A stretch of DNA of 20,000 nt from an uncultured virus (IMG/VR IMGVR_UViG_3300044706_000059) (IMGVR_UViG_3300044706_000059:56332-76331), one strand, 5' to 3'. Numbered from the stretch's first letter, positions 7,301 to 20,000 are shown. The notes: generated by a model from the letters alone, not told the origin. Numbers and translations: made by a program.

Positions 7301-8579
7301 AGATAGTACGCGCTTTTTAAAAGGGGTACTGCAACGAATGGATGGTACGGGTACATGGCAGTCAGTGGGAGGTGGAGGCGGTAGTATTACCTTGGCTCCG
7401 ATAGGTTCTAGCCCAAACGCAGACGGCGCTTCCTTTAGCTCTGGAACGCTAACATTACAACCGGCTAATGGTTCATTCGGTGGCGTGGTAACTACGGCTT
7501 CTCAAACATTTGCTGGAACAAAAACATTTAATAATGAAATAATTGTTAGTGGTAATACACCTAATAATCCTACAGGTCTATTCGGAAACATGAATATTCA
7601 GTCGTTTCAAAATCTGAATGGATTTGTTGCCAATAATCTTTATTACAACAACGGAGGTAGCGGATATACGTACCTACAAAATGGACAAGGCGCTCAGTTC
7701 CATTTTTCCTCAGGCGACATATTATTCGAAACAGCCGGCACAGGCACAGCAGGGGGCGCTGCATCGCCTTCTACTATTATGCAAGTTACTAATCCGGGAG
7801 AAGTTTGGACAAGCGGATCTATGTCAGTTGGATCATTGGCAAGCCCTACTTGGAAATTAGATGTTAACGGCCCTATCCGATCAAAAAGTGCAACTGCTGG
7901 ATTAATATTAAACAATAGAGGTACTAATGTTGAATCAATAATGCTTTATAGCCCTAGCGGTGGAGAGCTAGATGTTTACGATTGGACAACAAGTGCTACA
8001 CGGTTCACATTTTTAAGTACAGGGCAACTACAACTTAACAATTATGGTAGCGGCGCGTTTACAGGCACAGCAACTCACACCTTACAGTCTACATCGGACG
8101 GGCATATTATAGAAGGAGCCTTATTCGTTGATAGTGCTATCTGGAAAAATGATGGCACCATGACTGCCAATCATACGCTGAGCGGTAATAGTAAAATATT
8201 GAATATAGGGGCAAGTGGAAGCAAATTAACTAACCTCTATATGTATACAAGCTCAACCATTAATATGTTTGGTGGAGTGGTATACGGCACTGACGCATCC
8301 AATACGGATGCAAATTATACTGTACCCAATAATGTAATTATTGCTGAACTTTCGCCATCATTATCTACAAACAGAACACTAACTCTACCTACTGCTACAT
8401 TAAACGGTACTATGATAACATTGGTAATGAGATATTCAACAAGTACTAATGTTTACAACCTATCAGCAGCGGTAACCGATAATGCGACTGGTACAACATT
8501 TACTCAATTGGATTGGGGGCATACGTATGATTTTTATTATGATCAAGGTCTTTCATGGAGACTTATTAGAAAATATTAA
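4350..8579 (+). CDS. Tail fibre/tail spike with pectate-lyase-3-like beta-helix (putative depolymerase) and N-terminal signal-peptide-like sequence
   Basis: YDPHWWGAKANGTYDDTWAVQQAINAA matches the FGAKGDGxTDDTxAIQxAI beta-helix cap; GGGGSGTVTSV and QTFAGTKTF fibre motifs; G/T/S/N-rich. Confidence 0.8.
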   Translation: MKRLLTILFLIISIVCNAQLPFNPVVTQTSTGNFKWGWPRADSGFINAVRDTFNARYSGSQIIRIQNGDTSLWFGAGGHLWFKNLQGKDTNSLSTRINFKLNTIDTTNKWIGLGRRIQDTMYRINDSTIGYTINQVLHTIQILGRSQGGGGGSGTVTSVNMSVPAALTVSGGPITGAGTFNLSGAGNSGQYIKGNGTLGTTDTSMITNFYLKSRGLLSGNSPLSYNNITGIFSIQNANTTGQKGAATFVNASFSDNGSGLIDLADVVTGGVCSNCNVTFDSKGRATTFTDGTGASVNARRSVTKATLDSLQLVNDTTLNVATGRKYDYQLDTTGRRAYYEDKYVIGKNYGEIRGLRLPDTSYVFRANSSQVVGDYVYDPTDVTTTDDTVVTIVSGTYRYKRYIPDGVYDPHWWGAKANGTYDDTWAVQQAINAANKYTGNNGTVIRLTGNYKFDPSNFVYNTGRGMVFEITGNVQLLNTWRITRGVSIIGKGGATAEASFAWSNIASIQYTVVNTGAPKAAVELTYGGNTLRNLTIGSYGGIGVKLNGTFFIPAALALLDNVSASVGSYTGKQTGLLVSDWFWFKLDNCSFSVDGTSAAGSSSIKLEGKTYFPDINLCYLGEFNNCTAQGRPIRIQAGDTADASLNVGIVNITFRNLTIENVAPDTAAIMLNSTRIPIDNIVFERPVMVDTYNMGFFIYNAGNNTTGVKLHDGDLLSGQLKKIFGGAAIVNKYFTSTAKPINNFVFNPNSRQLYDDFGINGSTDNINMNRGWKPPLELQLYDGGQIARNAARLKDSVITSASVVTEPFTGYNGDTVAIKVTPDGTNSNPTIQIKQYEQVWHTGDQIYFGAWVKSDMMDSIFSTALKAQIDGGYLWQNTSSSTLVSDITFISQPNNGWRFLICSGLIDASASDHSSHKMYLYINSNDTNRTHPYYVSHAFAYKIDSATAINQNEFLSWVKMNAGGLYAVPSKSYGIRDDLPFYVGDSTRFLKGVLQRMDGTGTWQSVGGGGGSITLAPIGSSPNADGASFSSGTLTLQPANGSFGGVVTTASQTFAGTKTFNNEIIVSGNTPNNPTGLFGNMNIQSFQNLNGFVANNLYYNNGGSGYTYLQNGQGAQFHFSSGDILFETAGTGTAGGAASPSTIMQVTNPGEVWTSGSMSVGSLASPTWKLDVNGPIRSKSATAGLILNNRGTNVESIMLYSPSGGELDVYDWTTSATRFTFLSTGQLQLNNYGSGAFTGTATHTLQSTSDGHIIEGALFVDSAIWKNDGTMTANHTLSGNSKILNIGASGSKLTNLYMYTSSTINMFGGVVYGTDASNTDANYTVPNNVIIAELSPSLSTNRTLTLPTATLNGTMITLVMRYSTSTNVYNLSAAVTDNATGTTFTQLDWGHTYDFYYDQGLSWRLIRKY

Positions 8580-8588
8580 ACTAACGGT

Positions 8589-8987
8589 ATGAAAAATTAT
8601 ATCATCTTGGTTATAGGTTGGATTTTAGGACAAATTGCTTATGCCTTTAAAAAATCATGGGAAATACAACGCAACAAACCTAATGTTACCTTTAAAGAAG
8701 CATTAACGATGCATTTTACAAAAGAAACAGCATCCTTTGGATTTGCATTTATAATTCTACTAATAGGGTTGTTTATTCTTCCCAATTTTATAAATATGGA
8801 TTTGACACAAGAAGATGTAAAGAATTTAGAAGTAGCAAAATGGAAAGTTTATTTTATTAATTTTTTAAATGTAGTTGCTGTGATATTTGGTTACTTGTGT
8901 CAAAATATAGGGTGGTTTTTCTTTGGAAAATCTGAAAAAATATTACAACAATCAGCACAACAGGAAGGAATTAATTTACCATCATAA
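8589..8987 (+). CDS. Membrane protein with about 3 TM segments, holin-like
   Basis: Three hydrophobic stretches; located between tail spike and endolysin. Confidence 0.6.
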   Translation: MKNYIILVIGWILGQIAYAFKKSWEIQRNKPNVTFKEALTMHFTKETASFGFAFIILLIGLFILPNFINMDLTQEDVKNLEVAKWKVYFINFLNVVAVIFGYLCQNIGWFFFGKSEKILQQSAQQEGINLPS

Positions 8988-8997
8988 ATAAAAAAGA

Positions 8998-9186
8998 ATG
9001 AAACAAAGACTACTTAATATTTTAAACGAATTGCATCTTCACTGTGAAAAAAATGCACATGATGAAGAACTTAAAGGCATTAAAGATAAATTTCATTCGG
9101 CGATTACGGCAATGGATGAAACAAACGACCCACCTAGTAGCGGAGGCGATCATCCGGAGCCGCCAGATGTTCCGCAGGAAAGCTAA
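8998..9186 (+). CDS. Small hypothetical protein with acidic Pro-rich tail (62 aa)
   Basis: A-rich initiation region 10 bp after previous stop. Confidence 0.6.
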   Translation: MKQRLLNILNELHLHCEKNAHDEELKGIKDKFHSAITAMDETNDPPSSGGDHPEPPDVPQES

Positions 9187-9544
9187 TAATAATGATTTAC
9201 CAGCCTCTATATATTTTTATATTGGAGGCTGTTTATTTTTCCTTGCTTTTGCGAAATTCTATATAACGGGATGGAAACAGTTTTATTACTTATGGAGTTT
9301 TACGAAAGATTTTTTATTTATCTATACCATATACCTTATTAAACCTAAACTGAGAAAAGAACTTTACCCAATTTTATTTTTTGCAGCAATTAGGGCGATA
9401 TGGGAAACAATTTCAATAGCAACTACTCCAAAATTAGATCCCAACAACAGAATAAAGGTAAACTACTTGTTTTACCTCATGTTGGCAATAGTAACCGTGC
9501 ATCTATTAAACCGCTTAAGAAAAAAATGGAAACAAAAATTTTAA
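9167..9544 (+). CDS. Membrane protein with about 4 TM segments (125 aa)
   Basis: Same frame as track ORF 9044-9544; ATG 9167 chosen to minimise overlap with 8998-9186. Confidence 0.6.
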   Translation: MFRRKANNNDLPASIYFYIGGCLFFLAFAKFYITGWKQFYYLWSFTKDFLFIYTIYLIKPKLRKELYPILFFAAIRAIWETISIATTPKLDPNNRIKVNYLFYLMLAIVTVHLLNRLRKKWKQKF

Positions 9545-9744
9545 TGTTTTTATTTAATTGTTGCTATGGAGTATTGATTTTCATAAACATTGAGAATTTC
9601 AAAGGATGGGCCTTGTTCTCAATTGGCTTGCTGTATGGAGTTGCGCGCTTATTTTTCTATGTCATAAAACAGAACCAGGAAAGACGAATGCGTGAATTGG
9701 ACATTATGGAACGGCAAAGAAAAGTTGCGGAAACCTCAAAATAA
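9526..9744 (+). CDS. Putative holin (72 aa, 2 TM, charged C-tail)
   Basis: METKILMFLF... from ATG 9526 within track ORF 9400-9744; two hydrophobic segments and a charged tail. Confidence 0.55.
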   Translation: METKILMFLFNCCYGVLIFINIENFKGWALFSIGLLYGVARLFFYVIKQNQERRMRELDIMERQRKVAETSK

Positions 9745-9755
9745 AATTATATTTG
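9725..9755 (+). promoter_or_regulatory. Bacteroidota sigma-A-type promoter
   Basis: TTG (9725-27), 20 nt spacer, TATATTTG (9748-55). Confidence 0.65.
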
Positions 9756-9759
9756 TAGG

Positions 9760-9850
9760 GCTTAACCAAAATTGGAAGATATGGCGCTCAAAGGTGCAAG
9801 ACGGGAAAATCCTAGTTTTGGTTAAGCACACTTTTGAGCGCCATTCTTAT
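9760..9850 (+). promoter_or_regulatory. Structured leader with two interleaved 16-bp helices upstream of spanin-like and endolysin genes
   Basis: 9760-75 pairs with 9812-27; 9781-96 pairs with 9829-44; G-U pairs favour the + strand. Confidence 0.6.
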
Positions 9851-9864
9851 TTAAAATTTGTAGC

Positions 9865-10632
9865 GTGAAATTACCTTACTGGTTAAAAATTCTAGCAATC
9901 ATACTGATTATATTTCTAGTGTATGCATTAATACGCGGCTGTAAAAATGCAAAGCATAAGTATGATAATTATGATAACATTTCAGCCCAACTGACAAAGG
10001 TATTACAAGAAAAAAAGGATGATAGTTTAGCTGCTCTGATGAAAGAGCAATTGCAACAAGACACTATTGCCTTCATAAATGGTCAATTAGCATTATTCCA
10101 GAATAAGAACTTGGTTACTACAGATTCATTAAGGGCAGCAAATAATCGTATAACAACCCTCCTAAATAAACCCATTTCTATTCCCCCCTTATCCGACAGC
10201 GGAAGAACAACAGTTAATAATGAGTTTATTGCCGATTGCTCAGACTGCTTCAAAGAACTATCCAACGGGCAACAATTAGTTACACGATATAAATCAGAAA
10301 AGGATAGCATCCAGTCATTATTGACTTATAAAATATCAATAATGGATGATGAAATAAACGACCTTAATAAAACAAATAATTTTCTCCATCAAAAGGTAAA
10401 TGATGCAGTTAGCCTAGCACAACGCAGTCAAAAACAATCACAAATAAGAAGAACATTATATTTTAGTTTGGCAGCATTAAGTATCAAGGGCCCCCTTCCT
10501 AGTGGAGTGGGAGCCGGTTTTATTTATATGGATAAACATATGCGTTTATTTGGAGCTAACTACTTTATAAGTAATTATGGGGCCATTTATCAGGCTCAAT
10601 TGTCTATGCCATTATCTTTAAAAGGGCGCTAA
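9865..10632 (+). CDS. Spanin-like lysis protein (255 aa)
   Basis: N-terminal TM followed by LIRGC, long coiled coil, C-terminal amphipathic beta-strands; adjacent to endolysin. Confidence 0.6.
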   Translation: MKLPYWLKILAIILIIFLVYALIRGCKNAKHKYDNYDNISAQLTKVLQEKKDDSLAALMKEQLQQDTIAFINGQLALFQNKNLVTTDSLRAANNRITTLLNKPISIPPLSDSGRTTVNNEFIADCSDCFKELSNGQQLVTRYKSEKDSIQSLLTYKISIMDDEINDLNKTNNFLHQKVNDAVSLAQRSQKQSQIRRTLYFSLAALSIKGPLPSGVGAGFIYMDKHMRLFGANYFISNYGAIYQAQLSMPLSLKGR

Positions 10633-10791
10633 ATGATTTGGTTACATTTTATACCAATTACAGTTTTAACGATCTTTTATTTGTTATTGAAAAGATTGCC
10701 AGAACGAATATCTAATGATCTGCAAGCAGATGCGAATGTAAATGAAGCCTATCGCATTATAAACAATAAAATTAAAATTAAGGATAGATGA
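10633..10791 (+). CDS. Small single-TM protein (52 aa, MIWLHFIPITVLTIFYLLLKR...), not in ORF track
   Basis: Starts directly after the previous stop and ends with an ATGA overlap on the endolysin start. Confidence 0.65.
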   Translation: MIWLHFIPITVLTIFYLLLKRLPERISNDLQADANVNEAYRIINNKIKIKDR

Positions 10792-11333
10792 CAGACTATC
10801 AACACTTATGGGATACAATGATAGTAGACCCTGATAAATTAGGCATTATAAGTGCTATTGTCAGCAAAATACAAACCCGAAAGAATTTATACGATACTGT
10901 TGAAGCTGCTATCCGCGTACCTTGGTATGTGACGGCTGTTATTCATTATAGAGAATCCGGGCTAAGTATTCTACGTCATCTGCATAATGGTGACCCATTA
11001 ACAGGAAAGACTATCCACGTTCCAGCCGGCAGGCCAATGCATGGAGAGCCACCGTTTTCTTGGCAGGCGAGTGCTATGGATGCATTACAGCTAAAAGGCT
11101 TCGATAAAGTAACAGATTGGTCTTTGCCTCATATGCTAGAATTGATAGAAGGATATAATGGTTTTGGCTATCAAAAACGGGGTATCCCATCTCCGTATTT
11201 ATGGTCATATTCTGATAATTACCACAGAGGTAAGTACGTGGCTGATGGTAAGTTTGACCCCAATGCAATAGATCAACAATGTGGCGCTGCCGTACTTCTC
11301 AAATCCTTAATATCGGATAGTATTCATAATTAA
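10788..11333 (+). CDS. Endolysin, lysozyme-family (COG5526-like)
   Basis: Motifs VPWYVTAVIHYRES, HLHNGDPL, VPAGRP, EGYNGFGY, SPYLWS, GKYVADGKFDP, QCGAA. Confidence 0.85.
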   Translation: MTDYQHLWDTMIVDPDKLGIISAIVSKIQTRKNLYDTVEAAIRVPWYVTAVIHYRESGLSILRHLHNGDPLTGKTIHVPAGRPMHGEPPFSWQASAMDALQLKGFDKVTDWSLPHMLELIEGYNGFGYQKRGIPSPYLWSYSDNYHRGKYVADGKFDPNAIDQQCGAAVLLKSLISDSIHN

Positions 11334-11379
11334 TAATCAAAACCCCTCTAGGATTCGTGGGCTTTAAAAGAGTAAGTTT

Positions 11380-11405
11380 AACCGTGGCATTAGTCACGGT
11401 TTTTT
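11380..11405 (+). terminator. Intrinsic terminator of late/lysis operon
   Basis: AACCGTGGC-ATTA-GTCACGGTT plus T run. Confidence 0.75.
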
Positions 11406-11423
11406 GCATTAAAAAAGCCCGGT

Positions 11424-11431
11424 TAAGACTA
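11424..11431 (+). repeat. Target-site duplication TAAGACTA, left copy
   Basis: Identical to 14639-14646 and abuts the left TIR. Confidence 0.9.
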
Positions 11432-11456
11432 GGTAATAACTACCAATTAGGGACAA
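11432..11456 (+). repeat. Left terminal inverted repeat GGTAATAACTACCAATTAGGGACAA
   Basis: 20/25 identical to the reverse complement of 14614-14638. Confidence 0.88.
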
Positions 11457-11463
11457 GGGCTTT

Positions 11464-11500
11464 AAAAGAAATAGCCTCCAAATTGGAGGCTATTTCTTTT
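11464..11500. terminator. Bidirectional terminator just inside the left end
   Basis: Perfect 17-bp inverted repeat AAAAGAAATAGCCTCCA-AAT-TGGAGGCTATTTCTTTT. Confidence 0.8.
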
Positions 11501-11621
11501 TCTTTTTAGCTTTCTTTTTGGGGGGAGTATTAGCCGCTATCTTCATGGCCTCCCCGAATGTCATATCAAGTTTGACGGTAATATTGGGAACTTGTTTCTT
11601 ACCTTTCTTGGTGGACTTCAT
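11490..11621 (-). CDS. Small Lys-rich protein (43 aa, MKSTKKGKKQVPNITVKLDMTFGEAMKIAANTPPKKKAKKKKK), not in ORF track
   Basis: ATG 9 bp after the transposase stop; TAG lies in the terminator arm. Confidence 0.65.
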   Translation of the reverse strand: MKSTKKGKKQVPNITVKLDMTFGEAMKIAANTPPKKKAKKKKK

Positions 11622-11630
11622 ACCCTAAAT

Positions 11631-12788
11631 CTACGCATATTTCCATTCAAAGCCTCCTGTAGAATGTCTTTGGCCTAGCAATACCAATCTAATTTTAGCT
11701 GGATCAAGATTGTTAATTTGTGCAGCTTCTTTAATTGACGGATATTGAGCTATTACTTCTCCATTCTTAATTTGTAACACAGCTATTTTTCTGCCATTTC
11801 CACCCTCAATTTTTATTTGGGGAGTAGGAATAGTAATTTCTATTTTAGGAGCGGGGCTTAGGATTAAATCTTTATACTTTAATCTCCCAGGAGCCTTTAT
11901 TAGTGCTAGTATAAACCGGTCTGCATCTTTCATTTTTCTCAGATTGTATCTGAAAGCCGTTTCTTCACAATACCGGTTTAAATGCTTTATGGTCACTTTG
12001 TGATAAGTGCCTATAATAGTTCTTTTTAAGTGACTGAATGCTCCTTCTATAGTATTTGTATAGATTACCTGATCCCGTACGTATTCGTTAATAGTATGAT
12101 TCACAGTTTCATGGGCTGCATAGTCGTTTTTTAATCCTACATAATTAGCGGAGGTATCTGTCATTAATACTGCATCTTTATCTACATTTTCTTGGATTAC
12201 TTTATGAACGATTGGTACGCCGCCTGTACTTTCTCCGCTGGAAATCAATTTTAATTCGCCACCTCTTTCCACGAGCCCCATTACCATTACTTTAGTATCA
12301 GCTACTGCATTTGCTTCTCTTAAAATCTTCCTTTTATGTTTGTTCATATTACTCACCTTACCACCTATATACACTTCATCCACTTCTACTATGTTGTCTA
12401 GCTTCACAGGTTCTTTGGGACGCATTATCTCCCTGATTCTGTGCAACATAAACCAGCTACATTTTTGGGAAATTCCTATATGTTTGGCTAATTGATAAGA
12501 TGAAATCCCTTTTTTATTAGCAGTAGCTAAATACATGGCAATGAACCATTTATTTAAAGGAATATTACTCGCCTCGAAGATTGTACCCACTTTAACGGAG
12601 AACTTTTTATAACATTCTTTATTGCCGCATTTGTACCGGGCTCCTTTTTCTATAGAATAACATTTATTATGATTACAGTAAGGACAAATAACTATCCCAT
12701 TGGGCCATCTTTGCTTTGCAAGATATTCACGGCAGGCTTGCTCGTCCGAGAGCTTTTGAATCAATTGCTGAAGGTTCTTAAACTCCAT
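11631..12788 (-). CDS. IS1595-family (ISXO2-like) DDE transposase with C-terminal NUMOD1-like domain
   Basis: Zn ribbon CPYC...CGNKEC, HTH ISSYQLAKHIGISQKCSWFMLHR, catalytic VEVDEVYIGG, LMTD, TNTIEGAFSHLKR; tail YPSIKEAA...STGGFEWKY. Confidence 0.95.
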   Translation of the reverse strand: MEFKNLQQLIQKLSDEQACREYLAKQRWPNGIVICPYCNHNKCYSIEKGARYKCGNKECYKKFSVKVGTIFEASNIPLNKWFIAMYLATANKKGISSYQLAKHIGISQKCSWFMLHRIREIMRPKEPVKLDNIVEVDEVYIGGKVSNMNKHKRKILREANAVADTKVMVMGLVERGGELKLISSGESTGGVPIVHKVIQENVDKDAVLMTDTSANYVGLKNDYAAHETVNHTINEYVRDQVIYTNTIEGAFSHLKRTIIGTYHKVTIKHLNRYCEETAFRYNLRKMKDADRFILALIKAPGRLKYKDLILSPAPKIEITIPTPQIKIEGGNGRKIAVLQIKNGEVIAQYPSIKEAAQINNLDPAKIRLVLLGQRHSTGGFEWKYA

Positions 12789-12794
12789 TTTGGC

Positions 12795-12825
12795 TTGATT
12801 TTAAAGAAAATCTTACCTACCTTTG
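12795..12825 (+). promoter_or_regulatory. Antisense-oriented promoter between transposase start and tRNA, overlapping an inverted repeat (12813-12835)
   Basis: TTG (12795-97), 20 nt, TACCTTTG (12818-25); TTACCTAC/GTAGGTAA inverted repeat. Confidence 0.6.
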
Positions 12826-12839
12826 GAGTAGGTAAAAGG

Positions 12840-12914
12840 TAGTCCTGGTGGGGCTCGGACCCACAACCTTCCGATTAGTAATCGGAAACTCTATCCCAAT
12901 TGAGCTACAGGACT
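12840..12914 (-). tRNA. tRNA(-like) gene, anticodon ACU (nominally Ser) on a short-arm Arg-like body
   Basis: AGTCCTG TA GCTC AATTGGGATA GAGT T TCCGA TTACTAA TCGGA AGGTT GTGGG TCCGAGC CCCAC CAGGACT A, followed by CCT; all four stems pair. Confidence 0.85.
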
Positions 12915-12974
12915 ATATATTACTTTTAGACTTGCGGATCTACCTTATGCTTTGTTAATCCGCTAGAATTTACT

Positions 12975-13020
12975 AAAAGACCACTTGTTTAAGTTTGGCG
13001 ACTGGGCAAGTGGTTTTTCT
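12975..13020 (+). ncRNA. Hairpin with UUGGCG loop and U tail; probable 3' part of a small antisense RNA
   Basis: ACCACTTGTTT/GGGCAAGTGGT stem needs G-U pairs so folds better on +; apical AGT-TTGGCG-ACT. Confidence 0.55.
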
Positions 13021-13021
13021 T

Positions 13022-13435
13022 TTATCTTGTAATCAATTCATACTGAATTTCTTTCCCCTCCTTTTCTATTCTTTTATATTTCTCCCCTTTATCTGCTGAT
13101 AAAGTTGCAGATACACTACTCCAAACCGACTTCATTTGAAGTTCAGGCTGAAATTCAAGGATGGCCCGCACAATCTCTTTACCGGTTAATGGCATCATGC
13201 TGGTTCGTAGAATGAAAGTTATTTTATTATTCCATGTCCAATTGGGGTCGTAATTTTCCCGAGAATGGCTATTATAAGGCTGTATCGACAGCCTCTTAAG
13301 ATTAGCAATTTTTTCATCTAACCTCTTTATTGCATAATTCAACTTATCTATCTGTTGTTGATATTCCTTCTTACTGGCTTCGTGCGCCTTTAATAATATA
13401 TCTATATCTTCTTTCTCTAAATTAGGCGAATACAT
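13022..13435 (-). CDS. Putative DNA-binding regulator: coiled coil plus winged-HTH-like domain (137 aa)
   Basis: Heptad N-terminus; WNNKITFILR..PLTGKEIVRAILE...VWSSVSATLS..YKRIE..IQYEL fits a wHTH pattern. Confidence 0.7.
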   Translation of the reverse strand: MYSPNLEKEDIDILLKAHEASKKEYQQQIDKLNYAIKRLDEKIANLKRLSIQPYNSHSRENYDPNWTWNNKITFILRTSMMPLTGKEIVRAILEFQPELQMKSVWSSVSATLSADKGEKYKRIEKEGKEIQYELITR

Positions 13436-13456
13436 TTGGCGACTGATTTAATACTG

Positions 13457-13488
13457 CAAACCTAGATACAAGCCTAGACATGACCAAA
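13457..13488 (-). promoter_or_regulatory. Promoter for regulator-tRNA-transposase unit
   Basis: Minus strand TTTG (13488-85), 20 nt, TAGGTTTG (13464-57). Confidence 0.65.
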
Positions 13489-13659
13489 TTTATTTCTAGG
13501 ATTGTTTTTAAAGTTGCTAGAAAATCTAGTAAAGGTGTTTTTTACACTAAGTAAAAAGAGTTTTAATTTCGCCAAATTCTTATTAAAACGGAATCTTTCG
13601 TTTGCATATATCGGTGCTTATTGTAATATTTGGCCCGACATAAAATAATTGCGTTAGCT

Positions 13660-13810
13660 CTCCCAGCTTTCCGAAACGACCAATTTTTACAAAGTATACG
13701 GGGGAACAGCGAAGCAGCACGCCTATGCGTGGGCTTTCGTCTGCTCGTATACATGGCGCTTGGTCGTGCCTGGAAAGCGGTGGATTGTTAAAGTCCCACG
13801 CTTTTTTTAT
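13660..13810 (+). ncRNA. GC-rich structured leader/attenuator ahead of cargo genes
   Basis: Nested stems GCTTTCC/GGAAAGC, ACGACCAA/TTGGTCGT, GTATACG/CGTATAC, CACGC/GCGTG; overlapping terminator AAAGCGGTGG...CCACGC plus T7. Confidence 0.65.
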
Positions 13811-13858
13811 TTATATCTCGCCTTCAAGGGACTGCAAGGCACCTAATACTTTTCTGCC

Positions 13859-14077
13859 ATGTCCCTGGCTAATATTACCGGTAAGAAAATAATAACATCC
13901 CTCCTTGGGCATTTCCTCAGTGAATTTAAATGGTATCGAAAATGGATTGGAGGCACCTGGTACAAGGTTCACGACCCTTATACCGGAACAGGATGGGGAG
14001 GATTTACAGAATGGACGCAAACAATACCCACCAGCGATACCGCCGAAATCCAGCTAACAGAATCATGGACTAATTAG
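13859..14077 (+). CDS. Transposon passenger, small Trp/Gly-rich protein (72 aa)
   Basis: First ORF after the leader; 5 bp gap to the next ORF. Confidence 0.6.
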   Translation: MSLANITGKKIITSLLGHFLSEFKWYRKWIGGTWYKVHDPYTGTGWGGFTEWTQTIPTSDTAEIQLTESWTN

Positions 14078-14082
14078 AATTT

Positions 14083-14484
14083 ATGACCGAGAATACTGTA
14101 TTATTCCATAACTCGATTATATTCGGCTTATTTATAGTTTGCCTTATTTGGGGATCAATTACAATTAGTTTTTATACTGCTAAGGAACTGGTGATTTATC
14201 ATAGATTAAAAAAGGGAGGCAAAGCATCTATTTTAGAGCAAGCAACATATTTTTTTATTGCAATAGTTGGATGCTCAATTATTGCCGGTTTATGTGGCGA
14301 AACTCCGAACATTCATCATTCCCCCACTTCCCTTACAATTGTAGCATTTATATCTCTATTCATTCCATCATCACTAGGAATTATTCTTGGATTAAATACA
14401 GAATCTAAAATGTCAGACAAAGAAAGAGCCATTAAAAGAATAAAAATGAAAGATGCTGAAAATGGAGACGAAGGACGGTATTAA
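14083..14484 (+). CDS. Transposon passenger, 3-TM membrane protein (133 aa)
   Basis: Three hydrophobic segments and a charged C-tail. Confidence 0.7.
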   Translation: MTENTVLFHNSIIFGLFIVCLIWGSITISFYTAKELVIYHRLKKGGKASILEQATYFFIAIVGCSIIAGLCGETPNIHHSPTSLTIVAFISLFIPSSLGIILGLNTESKMSDKERAIKRIKMKDAENGDEGRY

Positions 14485-14570
14485 GTTATAGAAGGGGGGC
14501 TTCAATTCAATGACATTGTAATAAACATTATTATTCTCCGTATGATTGATTACAAATTGATATGTAAATT

Positions 14571-14603
14571 AAAAAGGTAGACTAAAAATAGTCTACCTTT
14601 TTT
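14571..14603. terminator. Bidirectional terminator just inside the right end
   Basis: AAAAAGGTAGACTA-AAAA-TAGTCTACCTTTTT. Confidence 0.8.
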
Positions 14604-14613
14604 GTTAAGCCTT

Positions 14614-14638
14614 TTGTCCCATAAAGGTTGTTATTACC
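14614..14638 (-). repeat. Right terminal inverted repeat
   Basis: Reverse complement is GGTAATAACAACCTTTATGGGACAA. Confidence 0.88.
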
Positions 14639-14646
14639 TAAGACTA
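14639..14646 (+). repeat. Target-site duplication TAAGACTA, right copy
   Basis: Identical to 11424-11431. Confidence 0.9.
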
Positions 14647-14818
14647 ACCAGGCTTTGATTGATCGTACCCTTTAAAACAAATAGTTCTTAAAAAGTTTAA
14701 AAATTGGAAGCCCAACACAATCAAACTAACTAAAACTTAACTAACATGAGAAAAAATCCAGAAGATGAAATCTAGGCATATATAAAGAATACATCCCGCA
14801 GGGCTTCCAAAGGAGTTG

Positions 14819-15178
14819 CTATTGTAATGCTTTATCTTGTATGAATAGTTCCCAATGTTTCAGGTCTGCATCTGCATCTACATCCATTTCGTGACGAATT
14901 GCTATAGATAATGCATCCCACTGAGATAGGTTGTAATTCTTGACGAAATCAGCCAAACTATAAGTACATTCACCCTCAATTACAGAGTTAGTTGTAATAT
15001 CCACATCATCAATGCTGCCTATCGAAGATAATAATTCTAAATAATCAACAGGTTTAAGTATAAGGTGAAAATTTTTTGACTGATTGTTATGGCTGCGGAA
15101 ATAAGATATAGACATCAGTTCTTCCGTCATACTCCAATTAGTAACGGTAATCTGGTTTCTTAATTGTTGAGTGGTCAT
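14819..15178 (-). CDS. Hypothetical phage protein (119 aa)
   Basis: ORF with AT-rich initiation region in the minus-strand operon. Confidence 0.75.
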   Translation of the reverse strand: MTTQQLRNQITVTNWSMTEELMSISYFRSHNNQSKNFHLILKPVDYLELLSSIGSIDDVDITTNSVIEGECTYSLADFVKNYNLSQWDALSIAIRHEMDVDADADLKHWELFIQDKALQ

Positions 15179-15244
15179 TGGTTTAAGATTTAAAAGGTTT
15201 TAAAATAAGAAATCTCATGTAATGTGTGCGGGTTAAAAACGGGC

Positions 15245-16120
15245 TTATTCATTAAATATGGAACGAATTATTTCACCTCCATAGGCATTTTGAGTTAATT
15301 TAACAAAGGTTTCTACCGTCATTGAACCATCAAGAGTAATACCATTTTCTTTTAACCAATGTTTTTTACCAGATTCACAAGAACCTGTGAGAATTGTATG
15401 CCATTTGTAAAAAAGATCATTGGAATATTGATTTCCCGGTTTGAATTGGCTTTTAAATTCTAAAATGGCCTTCTCCTTATCAAGTGATGAGTAATACTTT
15501 ATATCTACGGCTTCATTAGCTTCCTTAATAGTTTCACCATGCGCAAATAAATTGCCTTTTTTAACTACATACATCGCAGAGGTTGAAAAATCGGCCACAT
15601 TAATAATTGAGACTAGTGCAACATTGCCTTTTATACTATCAAAAGTGCATGGTATTTTGTCGATATAGTAAACCTTTTTGACACCAATAGAAGAAAATAT
15701 AATGCCGTAGCTGTCGCCGTCGCCGTAGCCATCGCCGTAGCCGTAGCTGTTGCCGTAGCCGTTGCCGTAGCCGTTGCCGTTGCCGTCGCCGTTGCCGTCG
15801 CCGTTGCCGTCGCTGTTGCCGTAGCCGTTGCCGTTGCCGTCGCCGTTGCCGTCGCCGTCGCCGTTGCCGTCGCCGTAGCCATCACCGTAGCCGTCGCCGT
15901 TGCCGTCGCCGTCGCCGTAGCCGTAGCCGTAGCCATCACCGTAGCCGTCGCCGTTGCCGTCGCCGTCGCCGTCGCCGTTGCCGTAGCTGTTGCCGTAGCC
16001 GTTGCCGTAGCCGTAGCCGTAGCCGTAGCCGTTGCCGTCGCCGTTGCCGTCGCCGTCGCCGTTGCCGTAGCCATCGCCGTAGCCGTCTATTTTCAAGAAT
16101 TGTTTAATTATCTTTTCCAT
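15245..16120 (-). CDS. Phage protein with long G-[D/N/Y] dipeptide repeat and globular C-terminal domain (291 aa)
   Basis: GDGYGNG repeats then YIDKIP...FAHGETIKEA...WHTILTGSCESG; overlaps upstream gene by 13 bp. Confidence 0.85.
   Translation of the reverse strand: MEKIIKQFLKIDGYGDGYGNGDGDGNGDGNGYGYGYGYGNGYGNSYGNGDGDGDGNGDGYGDGYGYGYGDGDGNGDGYGDGYGDGNGDGDGNGDGNGNGYGNSDGNGDGNGDGNGNGYGNGYGNSYGYGDGYGDGDSYGIIFSSIGVKKVYYIDKIPCTFDSIKGNVALVSIINVADFSTSAMYVVKKGNLFAHGETIKEANEAVDIKYYSSLDKEKAILEFKSQFKPGNQYSNDLFYKWHTILTGSCESGKKHWLKENGITLDGSMTVETFVKLTQNAYGGEIIRSIFNE
15704..16087. repeat. Coding hexanucleotide tandem repeat GCCGT[A/C/T], about 64 units
   Basis: Directly visible; encodes the Gly-X repeat. 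Confidence 0.95.
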
Positions 16121-16410
16121 GCGCTTACTGAATTAATTGTTTTTAGGGCAGCTTCTGAAATTGGATGATATTCAATAACATTTAAGATAGTAGATTTATC
16201 GGCATCCCCTAATTGAGCCGAAAATTTACAGTTTGATGGCTTACTAACTCCATCAGTAGCGATTGTTACCACATCTAATGCCCCTGCCCAATAATATAAG
16301 CGCCTGGCATTAGTAATTACAAGAGTTGAACCTTTTTCTTCAATGATTTTACCGATGAAAACGCCAGCACGATCTGCGCGGATAATAGAGAATCCTGTTG
16401 TTTGTTTCAT
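16108..16410 (-). CDS. Conserved phage protein (DUF6948-like), typical partner of Gly-repeat gene
   Basis: IIRADRAGVFIG...NARRLYYWAGA...ATDGV motif; family assigned from memory. Confidence 0.7.
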   Translation of the reverse strand: MKQTTGFSIIRADRAGVFIGKIIEEKGSTLVITNARRLYYWAGALDVVTIATDGVSKPSNCKFSAQLGDADKSTILNVIEYHPISEAALKTINSVSAWKR

Positions 16411-16440
16411 GTTGATTTTATTTTTTGAGTTTTAGAATGT

Positions 16441-16722
16441 TTATTCAGGTGAATAATAAGAGCAAACTATATCATCCGTTTGCTTATCTACAACCAATAC
16501 TAGATTGCTTTCCCGGCATCTTACCCAATATAGCTTATGGTCGTATTTATGTGCTTTTAAATCGGACATTTTAGGGCATTCGAGGTAATGTTTTCGAGTG
16601 CAGGAACCAAAGAGCAAAGCCAATGTTATAATCAAGACAAGCACAAAAAAGAATCCGTGTATGTTTTGCCGTCTGGAATAGTGTGGGCCTTCGTAATAGG
16701 CTTTAGGGGTTTGCTTTTTCAT
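16441..16722 (-). CDS. Hypothetical single-TM/lipoprotein-like protein (93 aa)
   Basis: Hydrophobic segment ending FGSC; ATGA overlap with upstream gene. Confidence 0.7.
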   Translation of the reverse strand: MKKQTPKAYYEGPHYSRRQNIHGFFFVLVLIITLALLFGSCTRKHYLECPKMSDLKAHKYDHKLYWVRCRESNLVLVVDKQTDDIVCSYYSPE

Positions 16723-16904
16723 TTTCTCTTTCTTTTGCGTTTGGTTAATTTATATTCTCGCATTAAGGAGTGAATAAAGTCGTTTTGGGTTACTAAGTTT
16801 TCGTGTGGCATTCGTTTATTAGTACCGGCCCAATTGTGTTCCTGTCTATCCCAGCGCCTTATTTCAGAGATAAACGTTTGCCACTCGTTCATATTTCGTT
16901 TCAT
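16719..16904 (-). CDS. Small hypothetical protein (61 aa)
   Basis: 4-bp overlaps with both neighbours. Confidence 0.7.
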   Translation of the reverse strand: MKRNMNEWQTFISEIRRWDRQEHNWAGTNKRMPHENLVTQNDFIHSLMREYKLTKRKRKRK

Positions 16905-17209
16905 AAATTAATTTTACACCATTTGATAATTAACTCGGAATCCTTTTTATTGAGATAAAGCACATAATGTAAATACCTGCCTTCTTTATTGCTTCTCCAT
17001 TTGGCTTCGACCAGGTTAATTAATTGACCATAAGAGTGGAGAAGTTTGTAAAAAATAGTTTCATTGTCACATTGAATAATAGCAGTATCATTTACATAGC
17101 TAATTGTAGTTTCATCTGCTATTTTTACGGGAGTAGGTTGGGCATTTGCTTTTAACCAGAACGCGCCCACCAACGAAAGAACCAAAAAGATAATGATTGC
17201 TTTTTTCAT
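16901..17209 (-). CDS. Secreted hypothetical protein (102 aa)
   Basis: Signal peptide MKKAIIIFLVLSLVGAFWLKANA-Q. Confidence 0.75.
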   Translation of the reverse strand: MKKAIIIFLVLSLVGAFWLKANAQPTPVKIADETTISYVNDTAIIQCDNETIFYKLLHSYGQLINLVEAKWRSNKEGRYLHYVLYLNKKDSELIIKWCKINL

Positions 17210-17214
17210 GTTTG

Positions 17215-17448
17215 TTAATAAAAGGTTATAAATTGTTTTAATTGCTGAATTACAAGTGATTTATAAGCTATTATTAAGCAGATAATACCGGTTAACATAA
17301 CTATCGCTGATATTGCCGCCCACCAACTAAAGTAAATGGGCAAGGTCTATGGAACATTGCGTGTAATAAGCCATATACAACCAACATACGCCCATATAAT
17401 AAAACTGGCACTGGAAAGCGAGATTAATAACCAAGATATACGTTTCAT
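17215..17448 (-). pseudogene. 2-TM membrane protein gene interrupted by one in-frame TAG (17347-17349)
   Basis: MKRISWLLISLSSASFIIWAYVGCIWLITRNVP*TLPIYFSWWAAISAIVMLTGIICLIIAYKSLVIQQLKQFITFY; fills the gap between neighbours. Confidence 0.6.
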
Positions 17449-17460
17449 CGGTAATAAGTT

Positions 17461-17634
17461 TTAAAAGGTTAAATAAAAAGACTTTGAATTAATAAGAACC
17501 AATTGCCCACCTACTACAGCCCACACATTAAAGGTGGAGTGTGAATAACGACTACTAATAGTACCATCTAGGTTGAATGTTATTCTGTACTGTAGTTGGT
17601 CTTTTAGGGTTGATATGATAGTTGCGTGGTTCAT
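17461..17634 (-). CDS. Small hypothetical protein (57 aa, MNHATIISTLKDQ...), not in ORF track
   Basis: Hand-translated; tightly packed in operon. Confidence 0.55.
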   Translation of the reverse strand: MNHATIISTLKDQLQYRITFNLDGTISSRYSHSTFNVWAVVGGQLVLINSKSFYLTF

Positions 17635-17640
17635 AGCCCT

Positions 17641-17757
17641 TTAGTTATAGTATTTAATAGCTTCATAAATAGTTTCAAATGCTTCAAAGTCAGGGATATA
17701 AAGGGCCATACCACCGGAATAGCCTAATAAGGTAGCTTGATCAATTATTTCAGGCAT
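17641..17757 (-). CDS. Small hypothetical protein (38 aa, MPEIIDQATLLGYSGG...), not in ORF track
   Basis: Hand-translated; tightly packed in operon. Confidence 0.55.
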   Translation of the reverse strand: MPEIIDQATLLGYSGGMALYIPDFEAFETIYEAIKYYN

Positions 17758-17771
17758 AATTTAGAGGTTTA

Positions 17772-18014
17772 TTAACGTGAAAACGAAATACCTAATGCTA
17801 ATAATGCTTTCTCTCCGCGAAGTATTGCACAAGATAAATGAGTACCACTAGTATAATCGCATTCAACCAATTCCTTTAAAGCTAAAAGAGCTTCTTTGTA
17901 TTGTCCTTTTTGCCATTCAGCGCCATCTTTAAAAGCTACTTCTACTATTCGTTCACAGTTTACACCAGAGTTTCGAAGTGCATAATCAGCGGCATATTGA
18001 AAAATATCTGACAT
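17772..18014 (-). CDS. Hypothetical phage protein (80 aa)
   Basis: AFKDGAEWQK resembles a common small phage protein motif. Confidence 0.7.
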   Translation of the reverse strand: MSDIFQYAADYALRNSGVNCERIVEVAFKDGAEWQKGQYKEALLALKELVECDYTSGTHLSCAILRGEKALLALGISFSR

Positions 18015-18022
18015 ATAATATA

Positions 18023-18316
18023 TTAATAAAACTTTGAGATAATCTCGTTAGTCAAATCACTATCGTATTCTGGCTCATAAGGGTCACTAATTGCGTAAAG
18101 AGTAAGACGGCACATTAACGCATTTAATTTCGGGTCATTTAATTCCGCAGCACGCGAAGCCACTTCCTCCAACATGCCCGCAAATATCTGTAAGGGCCTT
18201 TTCAAAATGCCCGTACCGGGATTGTTAAGGATTTCTTGTAATAATCCTGGAGTATGGCAACGCCATTCAAGATTTCTACCAGGTACAAGAATTTCTTTAT
18301 TTTTTATAGTTGGCAT
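18023..18316 (-). CDS. Hypothetical phage protein (97 aa)
   Basis: Operon spacing, helical protein. Confidence 0.75.
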   Translation of the reverse strand: MPTIKNKEILVPGRNLEWRCHTPGLLQEILNNPGTGILKRPLQIFAGMLEEVASRAAELNDPKLNALMCRLTLYAISDPYEPEYDSDLTNEIISKFY

Positions 18317-18325
18317 AAAACAAGT

Positions 18326-18562
18326 TTAAGATTCTAAATATAATTCACCATCCACAGGGCTAAACTTATCAGAAGTAGCCGTTACGGTACTCTCTTTTAG
18401 TTGAACTGTTAAAATAGCTACTATTGCAGGGTTACTAGTACCATTAGGCCCCAATTCGATAGCCCTTAAAGTACCAATACGGCCATCGTCATATTGTAGT
18501 TTATCTCCGACTCTTATCCGTATGCCGACAGTGCGTTGTTTAGCAATATATTCGCGTAACAT
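18326..18562 (-). CDS. Small beta-rich (SH3/KOW-like) hypothetical protein (78 aa)
   Basis: IRVGDKL...GRIGTL pattern. Confidence 0.65.
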   Translation of the reverse strand: MLREYIAKQRTVGIRIRVGDKLQYDDGRIGTLRAIELGPNGTSNPAIVAILTVQLKESTVTATSDKFSPVDGELYLES

Positions 18563-18582
18563 AATATTGGTATTAAATGATT

Positions 18583-18612
18583 GAAAAATAGCCAGTTATT
18601 ACCGATACTGGC
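18583..18612 (-). terminator. Terminator-like hairpin within early operon
   Basis: Minus strand GCCAGT-N10-ACTGGC followed by TATTTTT. Confidence 0.55.
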
Positions 18613-18630
18613 AAACGGCCTGATGATCGC

Positions 18631-18648
18631 CTTGGTCGTGCCTGGAAA
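18631..18648. repeat. 18-bp exact copy of transposon leader segment 13759-13776 (CTTGGTCGTGCCTGGAAA)
   Basis: Direct comparison; both copies intergenic. Confidence 0.9.
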
Positions 18649-18656
18649 AAACTAGT

Positions 18657-18866
18657 TCAAAACCCAAATAATATTTGAAAAAAGTTAAGTTTTTTTGCTA
18701 TCAATAAGCCCGTATAAACATTAGCCGGAGTTCCAGAAAGGGAAGGATAGTTAGTTATTGCATATCCTTCGGGCAGACTTTCAATGGCATACAGCGTGTT
18801 TTCACAAAAACTTTTATAGCTTTCTGCTTCAATGATAAGAACAACATATTTAGGTTTAGTTTTCAT
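18657..18866 (-). CDS. Hypothetical phage protein (69 aa)
   Basis: Operon spacing. Confidence 0.65.
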   Translation of the reverse strand: MKTKPKYVVLIIEAESYKSFCENTLYAIESLPEGYAITNYPSLSGTPANVYTGLLIAKKLNFFQILFGF

Positions 18867-18888
18867 TAAGTCTAGTTTATGTTATTAG

Positions 18889-19143
18889 TTAGTTTCCGGC
18901 AATTTCATTCCATACTACTTCCAATTCAGCTATTTCTAAGGCAGATAATTCATATTCCTCATCGGCAGGCGCATTGTAAATGCACACACATTCGTTGTCT
19001 TGTCTTTCTTTAAAGGCTGCAAAACTGGCCTCATCAACGGAATCAAAATAACCAATCAATCGCTCAGACAATACATTGTCATTTAAATCTAAAATCGCAC
19101 AAGTAGCCTTAATTTGTTGATTATCAGAAATGAACTTTGACAT
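18889..19143 (-). CDS. Acidic hypothetical phage protein (84 aa)
   Basis: Operon spacing; D/E-rich. Confidence 0.7.
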   Translation of the reverse strand: MSKFISDNQQIKATCAILDLNDNVLSERLIGYFDSVDEASFAAFKERQDNECVCIYNAPADEEYELSALEIAELEVVWNEIAGN

Positions 19144-19171
19144 AAATAGTTAGTATTAAAGGGGTGAATAA

Positions 19172-19438: not shown

Positions 19439-19471
19439 ATAGTTATAGTTTTAAAGGTTAATTACTTAATA

Positions 19472-19576: not shown

Positions 19577-19613
19577 AATTTCCAAGTATTAGTTTGTGTG
19601 TTGTTTGACAAGT

Positions 19614-19646: not shown

Positions 19647-19675
19647 TTTATTTTGAAGTATTTTTAAAATATTTT

Positions 19676-19951: not shown

Positions 19952-20000
19952 TCTCCCCAAATCTTCTTTCTTTTACGCTAATCCCCACCTCCCGCTATAC

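What the first reader, a model, noticed from the sequence alone, without database searches (positions are those of the whole stretch)
11411..14656. Insertion exactly in the loop of a terminator between convergent phage modules
Seen: removing the element and one TSD gives, on the minus strand, AAAGCCTGGTTA-GTCT-TAACCGGGCTTTTTT, a 12-bp hairpin with U tail, and the TSD is centred on the loop. Inference: the transposase targets terminator hairpins or palindromes as safe havens, and the element supplies replacement terminators (11464-500, 14571-603).
Basis: partly seen in the sequence, partly recalled or inferred. Interest (0 to 1): 0.7.

Follow-up and report, generated by a model that had tools for sequence, protein, structure and literature searches.

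The report
Transposon that lands in hairpin loops
A 3.2-kb cargo-carrying jumping gene of the IS1595 family sits exactly in the loop of a phage terminator hairpin, and its close relatives sit in hairpin loops too, so this transposase lineage appears to choose targets by DNA shape and not by sequence.

Summary
An IS1595-family element (11432-14638, 3207 bp) splits the minus-strand terminator hairpin between two convergent phage gene blocks. The duplication is 8 bp (TAAGACTA), not 4 bp, and it is still centred on the loop. A near-identical phage contig (L009) and contigs in 3 other sequencing runs carry the intact, element-free hairpin.

I found 27 loci whose transposase has the same extra C-terminal domain, and could map both ends plus an 8-bp duplication in 19. 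Eleven of the 19 sit on the axis of a stem of 8 or more Watson-Crick pairs, and 13 of 19 on a stem of 6 or more. That compares with 2 of 61 for other IS1595 relatives and about 2% of intergenic positions (Fisher p 4.5e-7). The sites share no sequence motif.

The 19 transposases fall in one clade. Their added C-terminal domain resembles the DNA-binding domain of the homing endonuclease I-HmuI.

Inward-facing terminator-like hairpins lie just inside the upstream end in 8 of 19 elements. This partly supports the "replacement terminator" idea.

Verdict: a new variant of a known kind, namely hairpin-targeting insertion sequences. The mechanism is inferred.

The parts
11380..11405 (+). Intact intrinsic terminator of the plus-strand phage gene block (stem 11380-11401 plus T run). 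It lies outside the element.
   Evidence: Terminator scan in the window. The same site is found in the element-free L009 at 5593-5614.
11414..11425 (-). Left half (3' arm on the minus strand, followed by the T run 11411-11416 read on that strand) of the split minus-strand terminator hairpin.
   Evidence: The intact hairpin is in L009 at 5651-5630.
11424..11431 (.). Left copy of the 8-bp target-site duplication TAAGACTA.
   Evidence: 8-bp overlap of the two alignments to L009. (joint with 8 letters fitting both sides).
11432..11459 (+). Terminal inverted repeat at the end downstream of the transposase gene (GGTAATAAC...GGGACAAGGG).
   Evidence: 19 of 24 positions match the other end. The same end sequence occurs in L004 and L152.
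11464..11500 (.). Perfect 17-bp subterminal hairpin with an A run and a T run on either side, terminator-like on both strands. It ends the transposase/small-ORF transcript and faces incoming plus-strand transcription.
   Evidence: It is conserved in L004.
11490..11621 (-). 43-aa lysine-rich small ORF directly downstream of the transposase gene.
   Evidence: BLASTP matches in 5 of the 18 other mapped elements. No Pfam or PHROG hit.
11631..12788 (-). IS1595-family transposase, 385 aa: N-terminal zinc ribbon, DDE domain, and an added C-terminal domain (about residues 326-385) like the I-HmuI DNA-binding domain.
   Evidence: Pfam PF12762 at 1.6e-33, PF12760 at 9.2e-9, and PF22083 at 2.2e-5 (below its cut-off). 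PHROG. PDB profile hit 1u3e_M at 1.5e-5. Fold match.
12838..12914 (-). Cargo tRNA gene with anticodon ACT and a short variable arm. A terminator-like hairpin follows it at 12837-12811.
   Evidence: ARAGORN. Rfam tRNA 60.4 bits. Terminator scan.
13022..13435 (-). Cargo ORF of 137 aa, no family match.
   Evidence: Not shared with other elements.
13618..13807 (+). Cargo: a rod-like structured RNA candidate of about 160-190 nt that ends in a terminator. It matches no Rfam family.
   Evidence: 92% identical to L004 cargo. Fold z-scores are -2.5 (plus strand) and -4.8 (minus strand). 8 of 49 predicted pairs change on both sides in a third copy, L180. Rfam searches were negative. It also lies outside the element in the element-free phage contig of run X5.
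13859..14484 (+). Two cargo ORFs (72 aa at 13859-14077; 133 aa at 14083-14484), no family match.
14571..14602 (.). 14-bp subterminal hairpin flanked by A and T runs. It ends the plus-strand cargo ORFs. Read on the minus strand, it is the first terminator-like site met by phage transcription entering the element.
   Evidence: The tool's own terminator scan does not list it, because the longest stem absorbs the T run.
14611..14638 (-). Terminal inverted repeat at the end upstream of the transposase gene.
14639..14646 (.). Right copy of the 8-bp target-site duplication TAAGACTA.
14645..14656 (-). Right half (5' arm on the minus strand) of the split terminator hairpin of the minus-strand phage gene block.

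Best explanation
What it is. The stretch 11432-14638 is a cargo-carrying insertion sequence (a 'transporter IS') of the IS1595 family. It inserted recently into the loop of the intrinsic terminator that ends the minus-strand gene block of a phage. The host is probably a Chitinophagaceae bacterium. The insertion made the family's usual 8-bp duplication, centred on the hairpin axis.

Why it is there. The position is not luck. This transposase belongs to a clade that has a roughly 60-residue C-terminal DNA-binding domain of the I-HmuI homing-endonuclease type added to the usual zinc-ribbon plus DDE core. Members of that clade place their two staggered strand transfers 8 bp apart, symmetrically about the apex of DNA hairpins or palindromes. 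The targets include terminators and REP-like repeats, and their sequence does not matter.

Inferred mechanism. The transpososome recognises an extruded or easily melted hairpin or cruciform, not a base sequence. The added C-terminal domain probably supplies this specificity.

Consequence. The element lands between genes and harms neither. Strong subterminal hairpins, here at both ends, insulate it from outside transcription and can stand in for the terminator it split.

What is shown and what is inferred. Shown: the identity of the element, its ends, the duplication, the natural empty site, and the clade-wide hairpin bias. Inferred: recognition of structure, the role of the C-terminal domain, and terminator replacement.
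For: Identity. Pfam finds DDE_Tnp_IS1595 (1.6e-33) and the IS1595 zinc ribbon.

Recent insertion. The empty site is present in L009 and in contigs of runs X3, X5 and X6.

Clade-wide test. I found 27 loci with a full-length transposase. Both ends and an 8-bp duplication could be mapped in 19. Their stem scores on the duplication axis are 4, 4, 5, 5, 5, 5, 6, 7, 8, 9, 9, 9, 11, 11, 11, 14, 14, 17 and 21 Watson-Crick pairs. Eleven of 19 score 8 or more, against 2 of 61 other IS1595 elements (Fisher p 4.5e-7; Mann-Whitney p 5e-9). Background is 0.96% of all positions and 2.0% of ORF-free positions (binomial 1.7e-14). The hairpin centre lies within 0.5 nt of the duplication centre in 14 of 19.

No sequence motif. 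Information content at the sites is at most 0.64 bit per position. Loop lengths range from 3 to 11 nt and stems up to 21 bp.

C-terminal domain. On the catalytic core alone, the 19 transposases fall in one clade of 21 (support 96/83). The two nested members that lack the domain (L143, L145) are not in hairpins. A profile of the domain hits I-HmuI residues 88-170 (E 1.5e-5). The AlphaFold model (pLDDT above 90 for residues 50-95) superposes on 1u3e_M at 1.4 A over 53 columns.

Insulating hairpins. An inward terminator-like hairpin lies at the upstream end in 8 of 19 elements, against 6.6% of internal windows.
Against: Eight of 27 clade loci could not be mapped: L016, L017, L134, L136, L154, L157, L160 and L174. 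In L154 both ends were found, but the flanking 8-mers differ and no hairpin is visible.

Among the 19 mapped elements, several are weak cases. L004 is the closest relative and is also in a phage, but it has only a weak AT/GU stem 2 nt off-centre. L132 lies 3.5 nt off the axis, inside an arm. L015, L131 and L158 have stems of only 5 pairs. L175 pairs well only with G-U pairs.

Only the window's empty site was verified in nature. The other 18 are reconstructions.

The link to the C-terminal domain rests on one gain and one apparent loss, so it is a correlation. L041, L069 and L078 lack the domain yet score 7-9. Three of 61 is the rate expected by chance.

Before the count I dropped four non-clade loci whose predicted ends did not start with GG (L027, L028, L038, L065), plus those with fewer than 19 of 24 matching end positions. 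In one search, L027 showed a 6-7 pair symmetric run, and L028's duplication lies in a 12-bp palindrome.

No transposition, transcription or DNA structure was measured.
Confidence: 0.75

Rival explanations
1. Survivorship, not choice. The transposase inserts more or less at random, and only copies that landed in harmless places, such as terminators between genes, persist.
For: All copies seen are fixed or assembled copies, not fresh events. Terminators are natural neutral sites. The window's site lies between convergent gene blocks.
Against: Selection for intergenic sites cannot centre an 8-bp duplication on a hairpin axis to within 0.5 nt in 14 of 19 cases. Only 2% of ORF-free positions reach a score of 8. 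Sixty-one other IS1595 elements are under the same selection, many of them in Chitinophagaceae/Bacteroidota and one in the same genome as a clade member (L141 and L133 in G096). They show background scores. Several targets are not terminators (REP-like repeats, long palindromes without T tails).
Confidence: 0.07
2. Sequence-reading of a symmetric site. A transposase dimer recognises a palindromic base sequence in ordinary duplex DNA, as many DDE transposases favour symmetric targets. Hairpin-forming ability is then incidental.
For: The more distant IS1595 relatives in my set do show a short symmetric consensus in their duplications (CTAATTTG, CAAATTTG, CTAATTAG, CAAATTAG and similar). Symmetric preference therefore exists in the family.
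Against: In the hairpin clade no position carries more than 0.64 bit. The arms differ completely between sites, loop length varies from 3 to 11 nt, and complementarity extends up to 21 bp, beyond any plausible footprint. A fixed half-site at a fixed distance is not visible.
Confidence: 0.1
3. The window case is chance. An ordinary IS1595 element happened to hit a terminator loop, and the clade pattern is an artefact of how I placed the ends.
For: Palindromic flanks make end placement ambiguous.
Against: Ends were set by the clade's conserved end motif plus an exact 8-bp repeat. Where later passes listed a second solution, I chose by the end motif. The same procedure gave background scores for the 61 controls. 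The window's ends are fixed independently by natural empty sites.
Confidence: 0.02

Closest known systems
IS1595-family insertion sequences with passenger genes ('transporter IS'; Siguier, Gagnevin and Chandler 2009). I did not read it.
   Same: Zinc-ribbon plus DDE_Tnp_IS1595 transposase, terminal inverted repeats starting with GG, an 8-bp duplication, one transposase gene, and variable cargo.
   Different: An extra C-terminal I-HmuI-like DNA-binding domain, and insertion on hairpin axes. I found no report of either. Full-text searches for IS1595 with hairpin, target site, terminator or passenger returned nothing on this, and passages of PMC9208149 do not mention it. ISfinder and TnCentral could not be consulted.
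IS1397 and ISKpn1 (IS3 family) and other REP-targeting IS (Tobes and Pareja 2006, PMC1525189; I read passages)
   Same: They insert specifically into palindromic units (REP). That paper says the transposase itself appears to set the specificity, and that REP targeting spans five families (IS3, IS110, IS4, IS256, IS5).
   Different: The families are different, and IS1595 is not among the five. Those elements are tied to particular REP types of one host. Here unrelated hairpins (terminators, REP-like repeats, long palindromes) are hit in many genomes and in phages.
IS1272 / TnSha1 of staphylococci (IS1182 family; Furi et al. 2016, PMC4923244; I read passages)
   Same: It targets hairpins, several of them confirmed terminators, with no primary sequence specificity. 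It carries cargo (sh-fabI).
   Different: According to the paper, IS1272 inserts into the stem, makes no duplication and deletes part of the hairpin (blunt cuts). Here the hairpin is kept whole, an 8-bp duplication is made, and the cut sites are symmetric about the apex.
IS110-family elements in REP sequences (IS621, ISPpu9, ISPpu10; search listings and abstracts only) and group IIC introns at terminators (recalled; listing of PMC7923331 only)
   Same: They use intergenic hairpins as safe landing sites.
   Different: The chemistry and recognition are entirely different: bridge-RNA-guided serine-type recombination, and ribozyme retrohoming next to a terminator stem. Neither makes a duplication centred on the loop.

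Membership tests
IS1595 family | Transposase with the DDE_Tnp_IS1595 (ISXO2-like) catalytic domain | tested here: met
   PF12762, E 1.6e-33, profile positions 1-153 of 153, 116 bits against a cut-off of 27.
IS1595 family | N-terminal zinc-ribbon domain | tested here: met
   PF12760, E 9.2e-9, 35.6 bits against a cut-off of 25.4. The cysteines C19, C35, C38, C54 and C59 are invariant in 36 homologues.
IS1595 family | Terminal inverted repeats and an 8-bp target duplication | tested here: met
   19 of 24 end positions match, and the duplication is TAAGACTA. The 8 bp are confirmed against natural empty sites.
Transporter IS (IS with passenger genes) | Non-transposition genes between the inverted repeats | tested here: met
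   A tRNA, three ORFs and a structured-RNA candidate lie inside 11432-14638. Cargo differs between the 19 elements.
IS1272 / IS1182-type hairpin targeting | Insertion into the stem with deletion of target bases and no duplication (as described in PMC4923244) | tested here: not met
   A perfect 8-bp duplication is present and no target base is lost relative to L009.
IS3-family REP-loop IS (IS1397 / ISKpn1) | IS3-type transposase (two frames, frameshift fusion) | tested here: not met
   There is a single 385-aa ORF with IS1595 domains only.
NUMOD / I-HmuI-type DNA-binding module (C-terminal domain only) | Sequence and fold likeness to the C-terminal DNA-binding domain of I-HmuI | tested here: met
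   Pfam PF22083 scores 24.4 bits, below its cut-off of 27. A profile of 19 sequences hits 1u3e_M residues 88-170 at E 1.5e-5. Foldseek's top hit is 1u3e_M, rmsd 1.4 A over 53 columns, E 8e-3. DNA binding itself was not tested.

The most novel reading that the evidence does not exclude
A lineage of DDE transposases gained a homing-endonuclease DNA-binding module and with it the ability to read DNA shape. It would capture extruded or melted hairpins and place its two strand transfers symmetrically, 4 nt to each side of the apex, whatever the sequence. Every terminator and palindromic repeat in a genome, or in a phage, then becomes a ready-made safe harbour for a cargo-carrying transposon that brings its own insulating terminators.
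Probability: 0.4. Interest if true: 0.75.

Novelty: new variant of a known kind. Interest (0 to 1): 0.62.

Why it matters
Target choice decides how much harm a transposon does and how far it can spread. Hairpin targeting that ignores sequence and makes a clean duplication centred on the loop would be a distinct solution to the safe-haven problem, in a very large IS family where I found no such report.

It links that behaviour to a discrete, swappable domain. This gives a testable model of how a DDE transposase can sense DNA structure.

The elements carry variable cargo and occur in both bacterial chromosomes and phages. They could therefore move genes between the two without breaking either.

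For annotation, split terminators and split REP-like repeats in Chitinophagaceae and their phages can serve as markers of these insertions.

Tried and rejected
- The 4-bp duplication with TAGG.../...CCTA ends was rejected in favour of 8 bp.
- A scan of viral contigs with the end-repeat pattern found only the contig of L004.
- A BLAST of the element against deposited phages matched only the tRNA.
- The window's own record holds no second copy of the element.
- A class-level sample of 401 genomes gave 2 hits at E 1e-90 or better, both from genomes already found in the family search (G001 full-length, G106 domain-less).
- Eight clade loci could not be bounded.
- Pfam and PHROG gave nothing for the flanking phage genes, apart from DUF6948 and a weak TrAA12 match. 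'Phage modules' therefore rests on gene orientation and on the record being a viral contig.
- A single-sequence search of the C-terminal 89 aa against PDB sequences gave nothing. The profile search did.
- Rfam gave no family for the RNA candidate at 13618-13807. An exact 23-nt word from it occurs in only one other viral contig.
- No RNA holder is listed among the public runs.
- I classified by eye which sites have a T tail and how the transposase is oriented to it. About 8 of 10 are co-directional, one-sided binomial 0.055. This is suggestive only.
- Earlier notes of this scan near this place: none.


Full report
OBSERVATION. The window is the last 20 kb of a 76-kb viral record. Large plus-strand ORFs run up to 11333, and a string of small minus-strand ORFs starts at 15178. 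Between them the plus-strand block ends in its own terminator (11380-11405). Next to it lie two half-hairpins, AAAGCCCGGTTA (11414-11425) and TAACCAGGCTTT (14645-14656), separated by 3.2 kb. L009, from another viral contig, matches window 9738-11431 at 97.8% and 14639-19552 at 99.3%. The two alignments overlap by 8 bp in L009. There the terminator scan finds two back-to-back convergent terminators, and the minus-strand one is the intact hairpin. I laid contigs of four public runs on the region. Three of them (two studies) join 11423 to 14639 with 8 letters fitting both sides. The fourth may be the source of this record and carries the element. The insertion is therefore real, recent and polymorphic.

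CORRECTION. The duplication is 8 bp (TAAGACTA; 11424-11431 and 14639-14646), and the element runs 11432-14638. The closest relative is L004 (transposase 78% identical, another viral contig). It has the same GGTAATAAC ends and the 8-bp duplication GAAAATTC. The centre does not move.

WHAT THE ELEMENT IS. The 385-aa protein has the IS1595 zinc ribbon and the full DDE_Tnp_IS1595 domain. Inside the inverted repeats lie:
- a 43-aa basic ORF just downstream of the transposase gene, shared with 5 of the 18 other mapped elements;
- a tRNA gene with anticodon ACT;
- three ORFs without family matches;
- a 190-nt structured-RNA candidate.
Only the transposase and the small ORF recur in relatives, so the rest is cargo. 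This makes it a cargo-carrying IS of the IS1595 family.

THE TEST ACROSS HOMOLOGUES. The transposase has 2,204 homologues at E 1e-20 or better. The close ones are named from Chitinophagaceae. I collected loci as follows:
- viral contigs: 1 close relative;
- species-representative genomes: the best 80 of 593 relatives kept;
- metagenome contigs: 19 loci;
- whole-genome searches: family sample, 27 of 401 genomes hit; class sample, 2 of 401; genus sample, 12 of 301.
Longer flanks were fetched. Ends were placed by scripts that require an exact (once a 7-of-8) 8-bp direct repeat outside a pair of inverted ends carrying the clade's motif. Twenty-seven loci encode a full-length transposase with the C-terminal extension, and 19 of them could be mapped. 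The eight failures are L016, L017, L134, L136, L154, L157, L160 and L174. They are short contigs, single ends or decayed copies. In L154 both ends were found, but the flanking 8-mers differ. L157 shows only its left junction, which lies in a REP-like repeat.

RESULT. For each mapped element I rebuilt the empty site and scored the longest run of Watson-Crick pairs. One mismatch was allowed, the loop could be 3-14 nt, and the axis had to lie within 2 nt of the duplication centre.
- The 19 clade members score 4, 4, 5, 5, 5, 5, 6, 7, 8, 9, 9, 9, 11, 11, 11, 14, 14, 17 and 21.
- Sixty-one other IS1595 elements mapped in the same way score 2-5, apart from three at 6 and single values of 7, 8 and 9.
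- At a threshold of 8 the counts are 11 of 19 against 2 of 61 (Fisher 4.5e-7). The rank test gives 5e-9.
- In the flanks of nine clade loci, 0.96% of all positions and 2.0% of ORF-free positions reach 8. The binomial probability for 11 of 19 is then 1.7e-14.
- The hairpin axis coincides with the duplication centre within 0.5 nt in 14 of 19.
- In several cases (L135, L152, L172) the 8-bp duplication is exactly the 8-nt loop.

THE WEAKER CASES. L015, L131 and L158 sit in 9-11-nt loops of short-stemmed REP-like repeats. L175 pairs well only with G-U pairs on one strand. L132 lies 3.5 nt off the axis of an 11-pair hairpin. L004 has only a weak stem.

ROWS DROPPED. Before the control count I dropped non-clade loci with uncertain ends: L027, L028, L038 and L065, plus those with fewer than 19 of 24 matching end positions. 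L027 and L028 had some symmetry. L059 was also left out, because its site lies too near the locus end.

NO SEQUENCE MOTIF. When the sites are aligned on the duplication and oriented by the transposase, no position carries more than 0.64 bit. The arms are unrelated in sequence, loops are 3-11 nt, and stems reach 21 bp. By eye, about 10 of the 19 have a T tail and look like terminators. The others are REP-like repeats or plain palindromes. The common feature is therefore the hairpin, not termination.

THE ADDED DOMAIN. A maximum-likelihood tree of the first 305 residues puts all 19 in one clade of 21 (support 96/83). The two nested exceptions, L143 and L145, are 321 and 324 aa long, lack the extension and are not in hairpins. 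Sister lineages of about 310 aa are as similar in the catalytic core (50-59% identity) but behave differently. A profile of the C-terminal 95 residues hits the homing endonuclease I-HmuI (1u3e_M, residues 88-170, E 1.5e-5). The predicted fold is two strands, a helix-turn-helix and a final strand, with pLDDT above 90. It superposes on the same chain at 1.4 A over 53 columns. PHROG profiles annotated as HNH endonuclease and as HTH DNA-binding protein match residues 326-385. The domain is the obvious candidate for the new specificity, but this is a correlation resting on one gain and one loss.

REPLACEMENT TERMINATORS. In this copy both ends carry perfect hairpins flanked by A and T runs (11464-11500 and 14571-14602). 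Phage transcription from the minus-strand block now enters at 14638 and meets the second hairpin after 36 nt. Across the clade, an inward-facing terminator-like hairpin lies within 110 nt of the transposase-upstream end in 8 of 19 elements, against 6.6% of 1,040 internal windows. The feature is enriched but not universal. The same hairpins also end the element's own transcripts. Whether they terminate anything was not measured.

MECHANISM AND RIVALS. The best reading is structure-directed target capture. The two strand transfers fall 4 nt on each side of the apex of a hairpin or cruciform, or of a palindrome whose centre melts easily. Survivorship alone cannot give sub-nucleotide centring, and it does not affect the 61 controls in the same way. 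Sequence reading of a symmetric duplex site is unlikely without any conserved position. The sequence data cannot say whether the target is an extruded cruciform, a transient hairpin at a fork, or a deformable duplex.

COMPARISON WITH WHAT IS KNOWN. Hairpin or REP targeting is known in other families. IS1397 and ISKpn1 and others span five families that do not include IS1595 (PMC1525189, passages). IS1272/TnSha1 hits terminator hairpins but, according to the paper, cuts the stem, deletes part of it and makes no duplication (PMC4923244, passages). IS110 elements use REP sites (listings and abstracts). Full-text searches for IS1595 with hairpin, target site, terminator or passenger found no report of this behaviour. 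The original family description and ISfinder were not available to me. An earlier, unchecked note of this scan (e1-4116030) describes a transposase-less IS1595-type cassette in a hairpin loop in another genome. That agrees with my reading, and I did not test it.

VERDICT. It is a new variant of a known kind: an IS1595 subclade with a fused homing-endonuclease-type DNA-binding domain that inserts on hairpin axes, here caught in a phage terminator with the empty site still circulating. The mechanism is inferred and needs the assays listed under next steps.

Noticed in passing
window 13618-13807 (+); L004 about 2838-3022 (-); L180 1501-1662 (-): A rod-like structured RNA candidate of about 160-190 nt, with a promoter-like upstream stretch and its own terminator. 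It is 92% identical between the window's and L004's cargo, although the transposase genes are only 75% identical. A 72%-identical copy lies in one of 401 Chitinophagaceae genomes, and 8 of 49 predicted pairs change on both sides in it. In run X5 it lies 41 kb away from the empty site on the same 80-kb element-free phage contig, so it is a phage sequence that also travels as IS cargo. It matches no Rfam family.
   Followed up: partly
window 12838-12914 (-); L132 8643-8714 and 8547-8621; L172 6661-6732; L018 5832-5904: tRNA or tRNA-like genes recur as cargo in 4 of the 19 mapped elements. Two are called with the unusual anticodon ACT and a short variable arm, so they are not of serine type. The window's copy resembles phage tRNA-Lys genes by BLAST. 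What they decode is open.
   Followed up: partly
L139, L140, L142, L144, L159 (insertion sites): Five domain-less sister elements of about 310 aa, from five genomes or contigs, share almost the same duplication (CTTGCGTC or GTTGCGTC) followed by a near-identical stretch of about 12 nt (gcactcttgtac in four, gcactcttcaac in L159). The other flank differs. This looks like site-specific insertion into a conserved sequence that I did not identify.
   Followed up: no
L050, L051, L053, L076, L077, L085, L087, L089 and others (distant IS1595 relatives, mostly Acidobacteriota): Their 8-bp duplications follow a short symmetric consensus close to CWAATTWG. All these elements are 2-5 kb long, so they carry cargo.
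   Followed up: no
L015, L131, L157, L158 flanks: Chitinophagaceae genomes carry REP-like repeats, such as clusters of gtcatcccgacg units and the cttcgacaagctcag type. Their loops are used as landing sites by the hairpin-targeting clade.
   Followed up: no
window 1-11333 and 14819-20000: Nearly all flanking phage ORFs, including proteins of 868 and 1409 aa, have no Pfam or PHROG match. The exceptions are DUF6948 (16108-16410) and a weak TrAA12 match (15245-16120). The phage is poorly related to described ones.
   Followed up: partly
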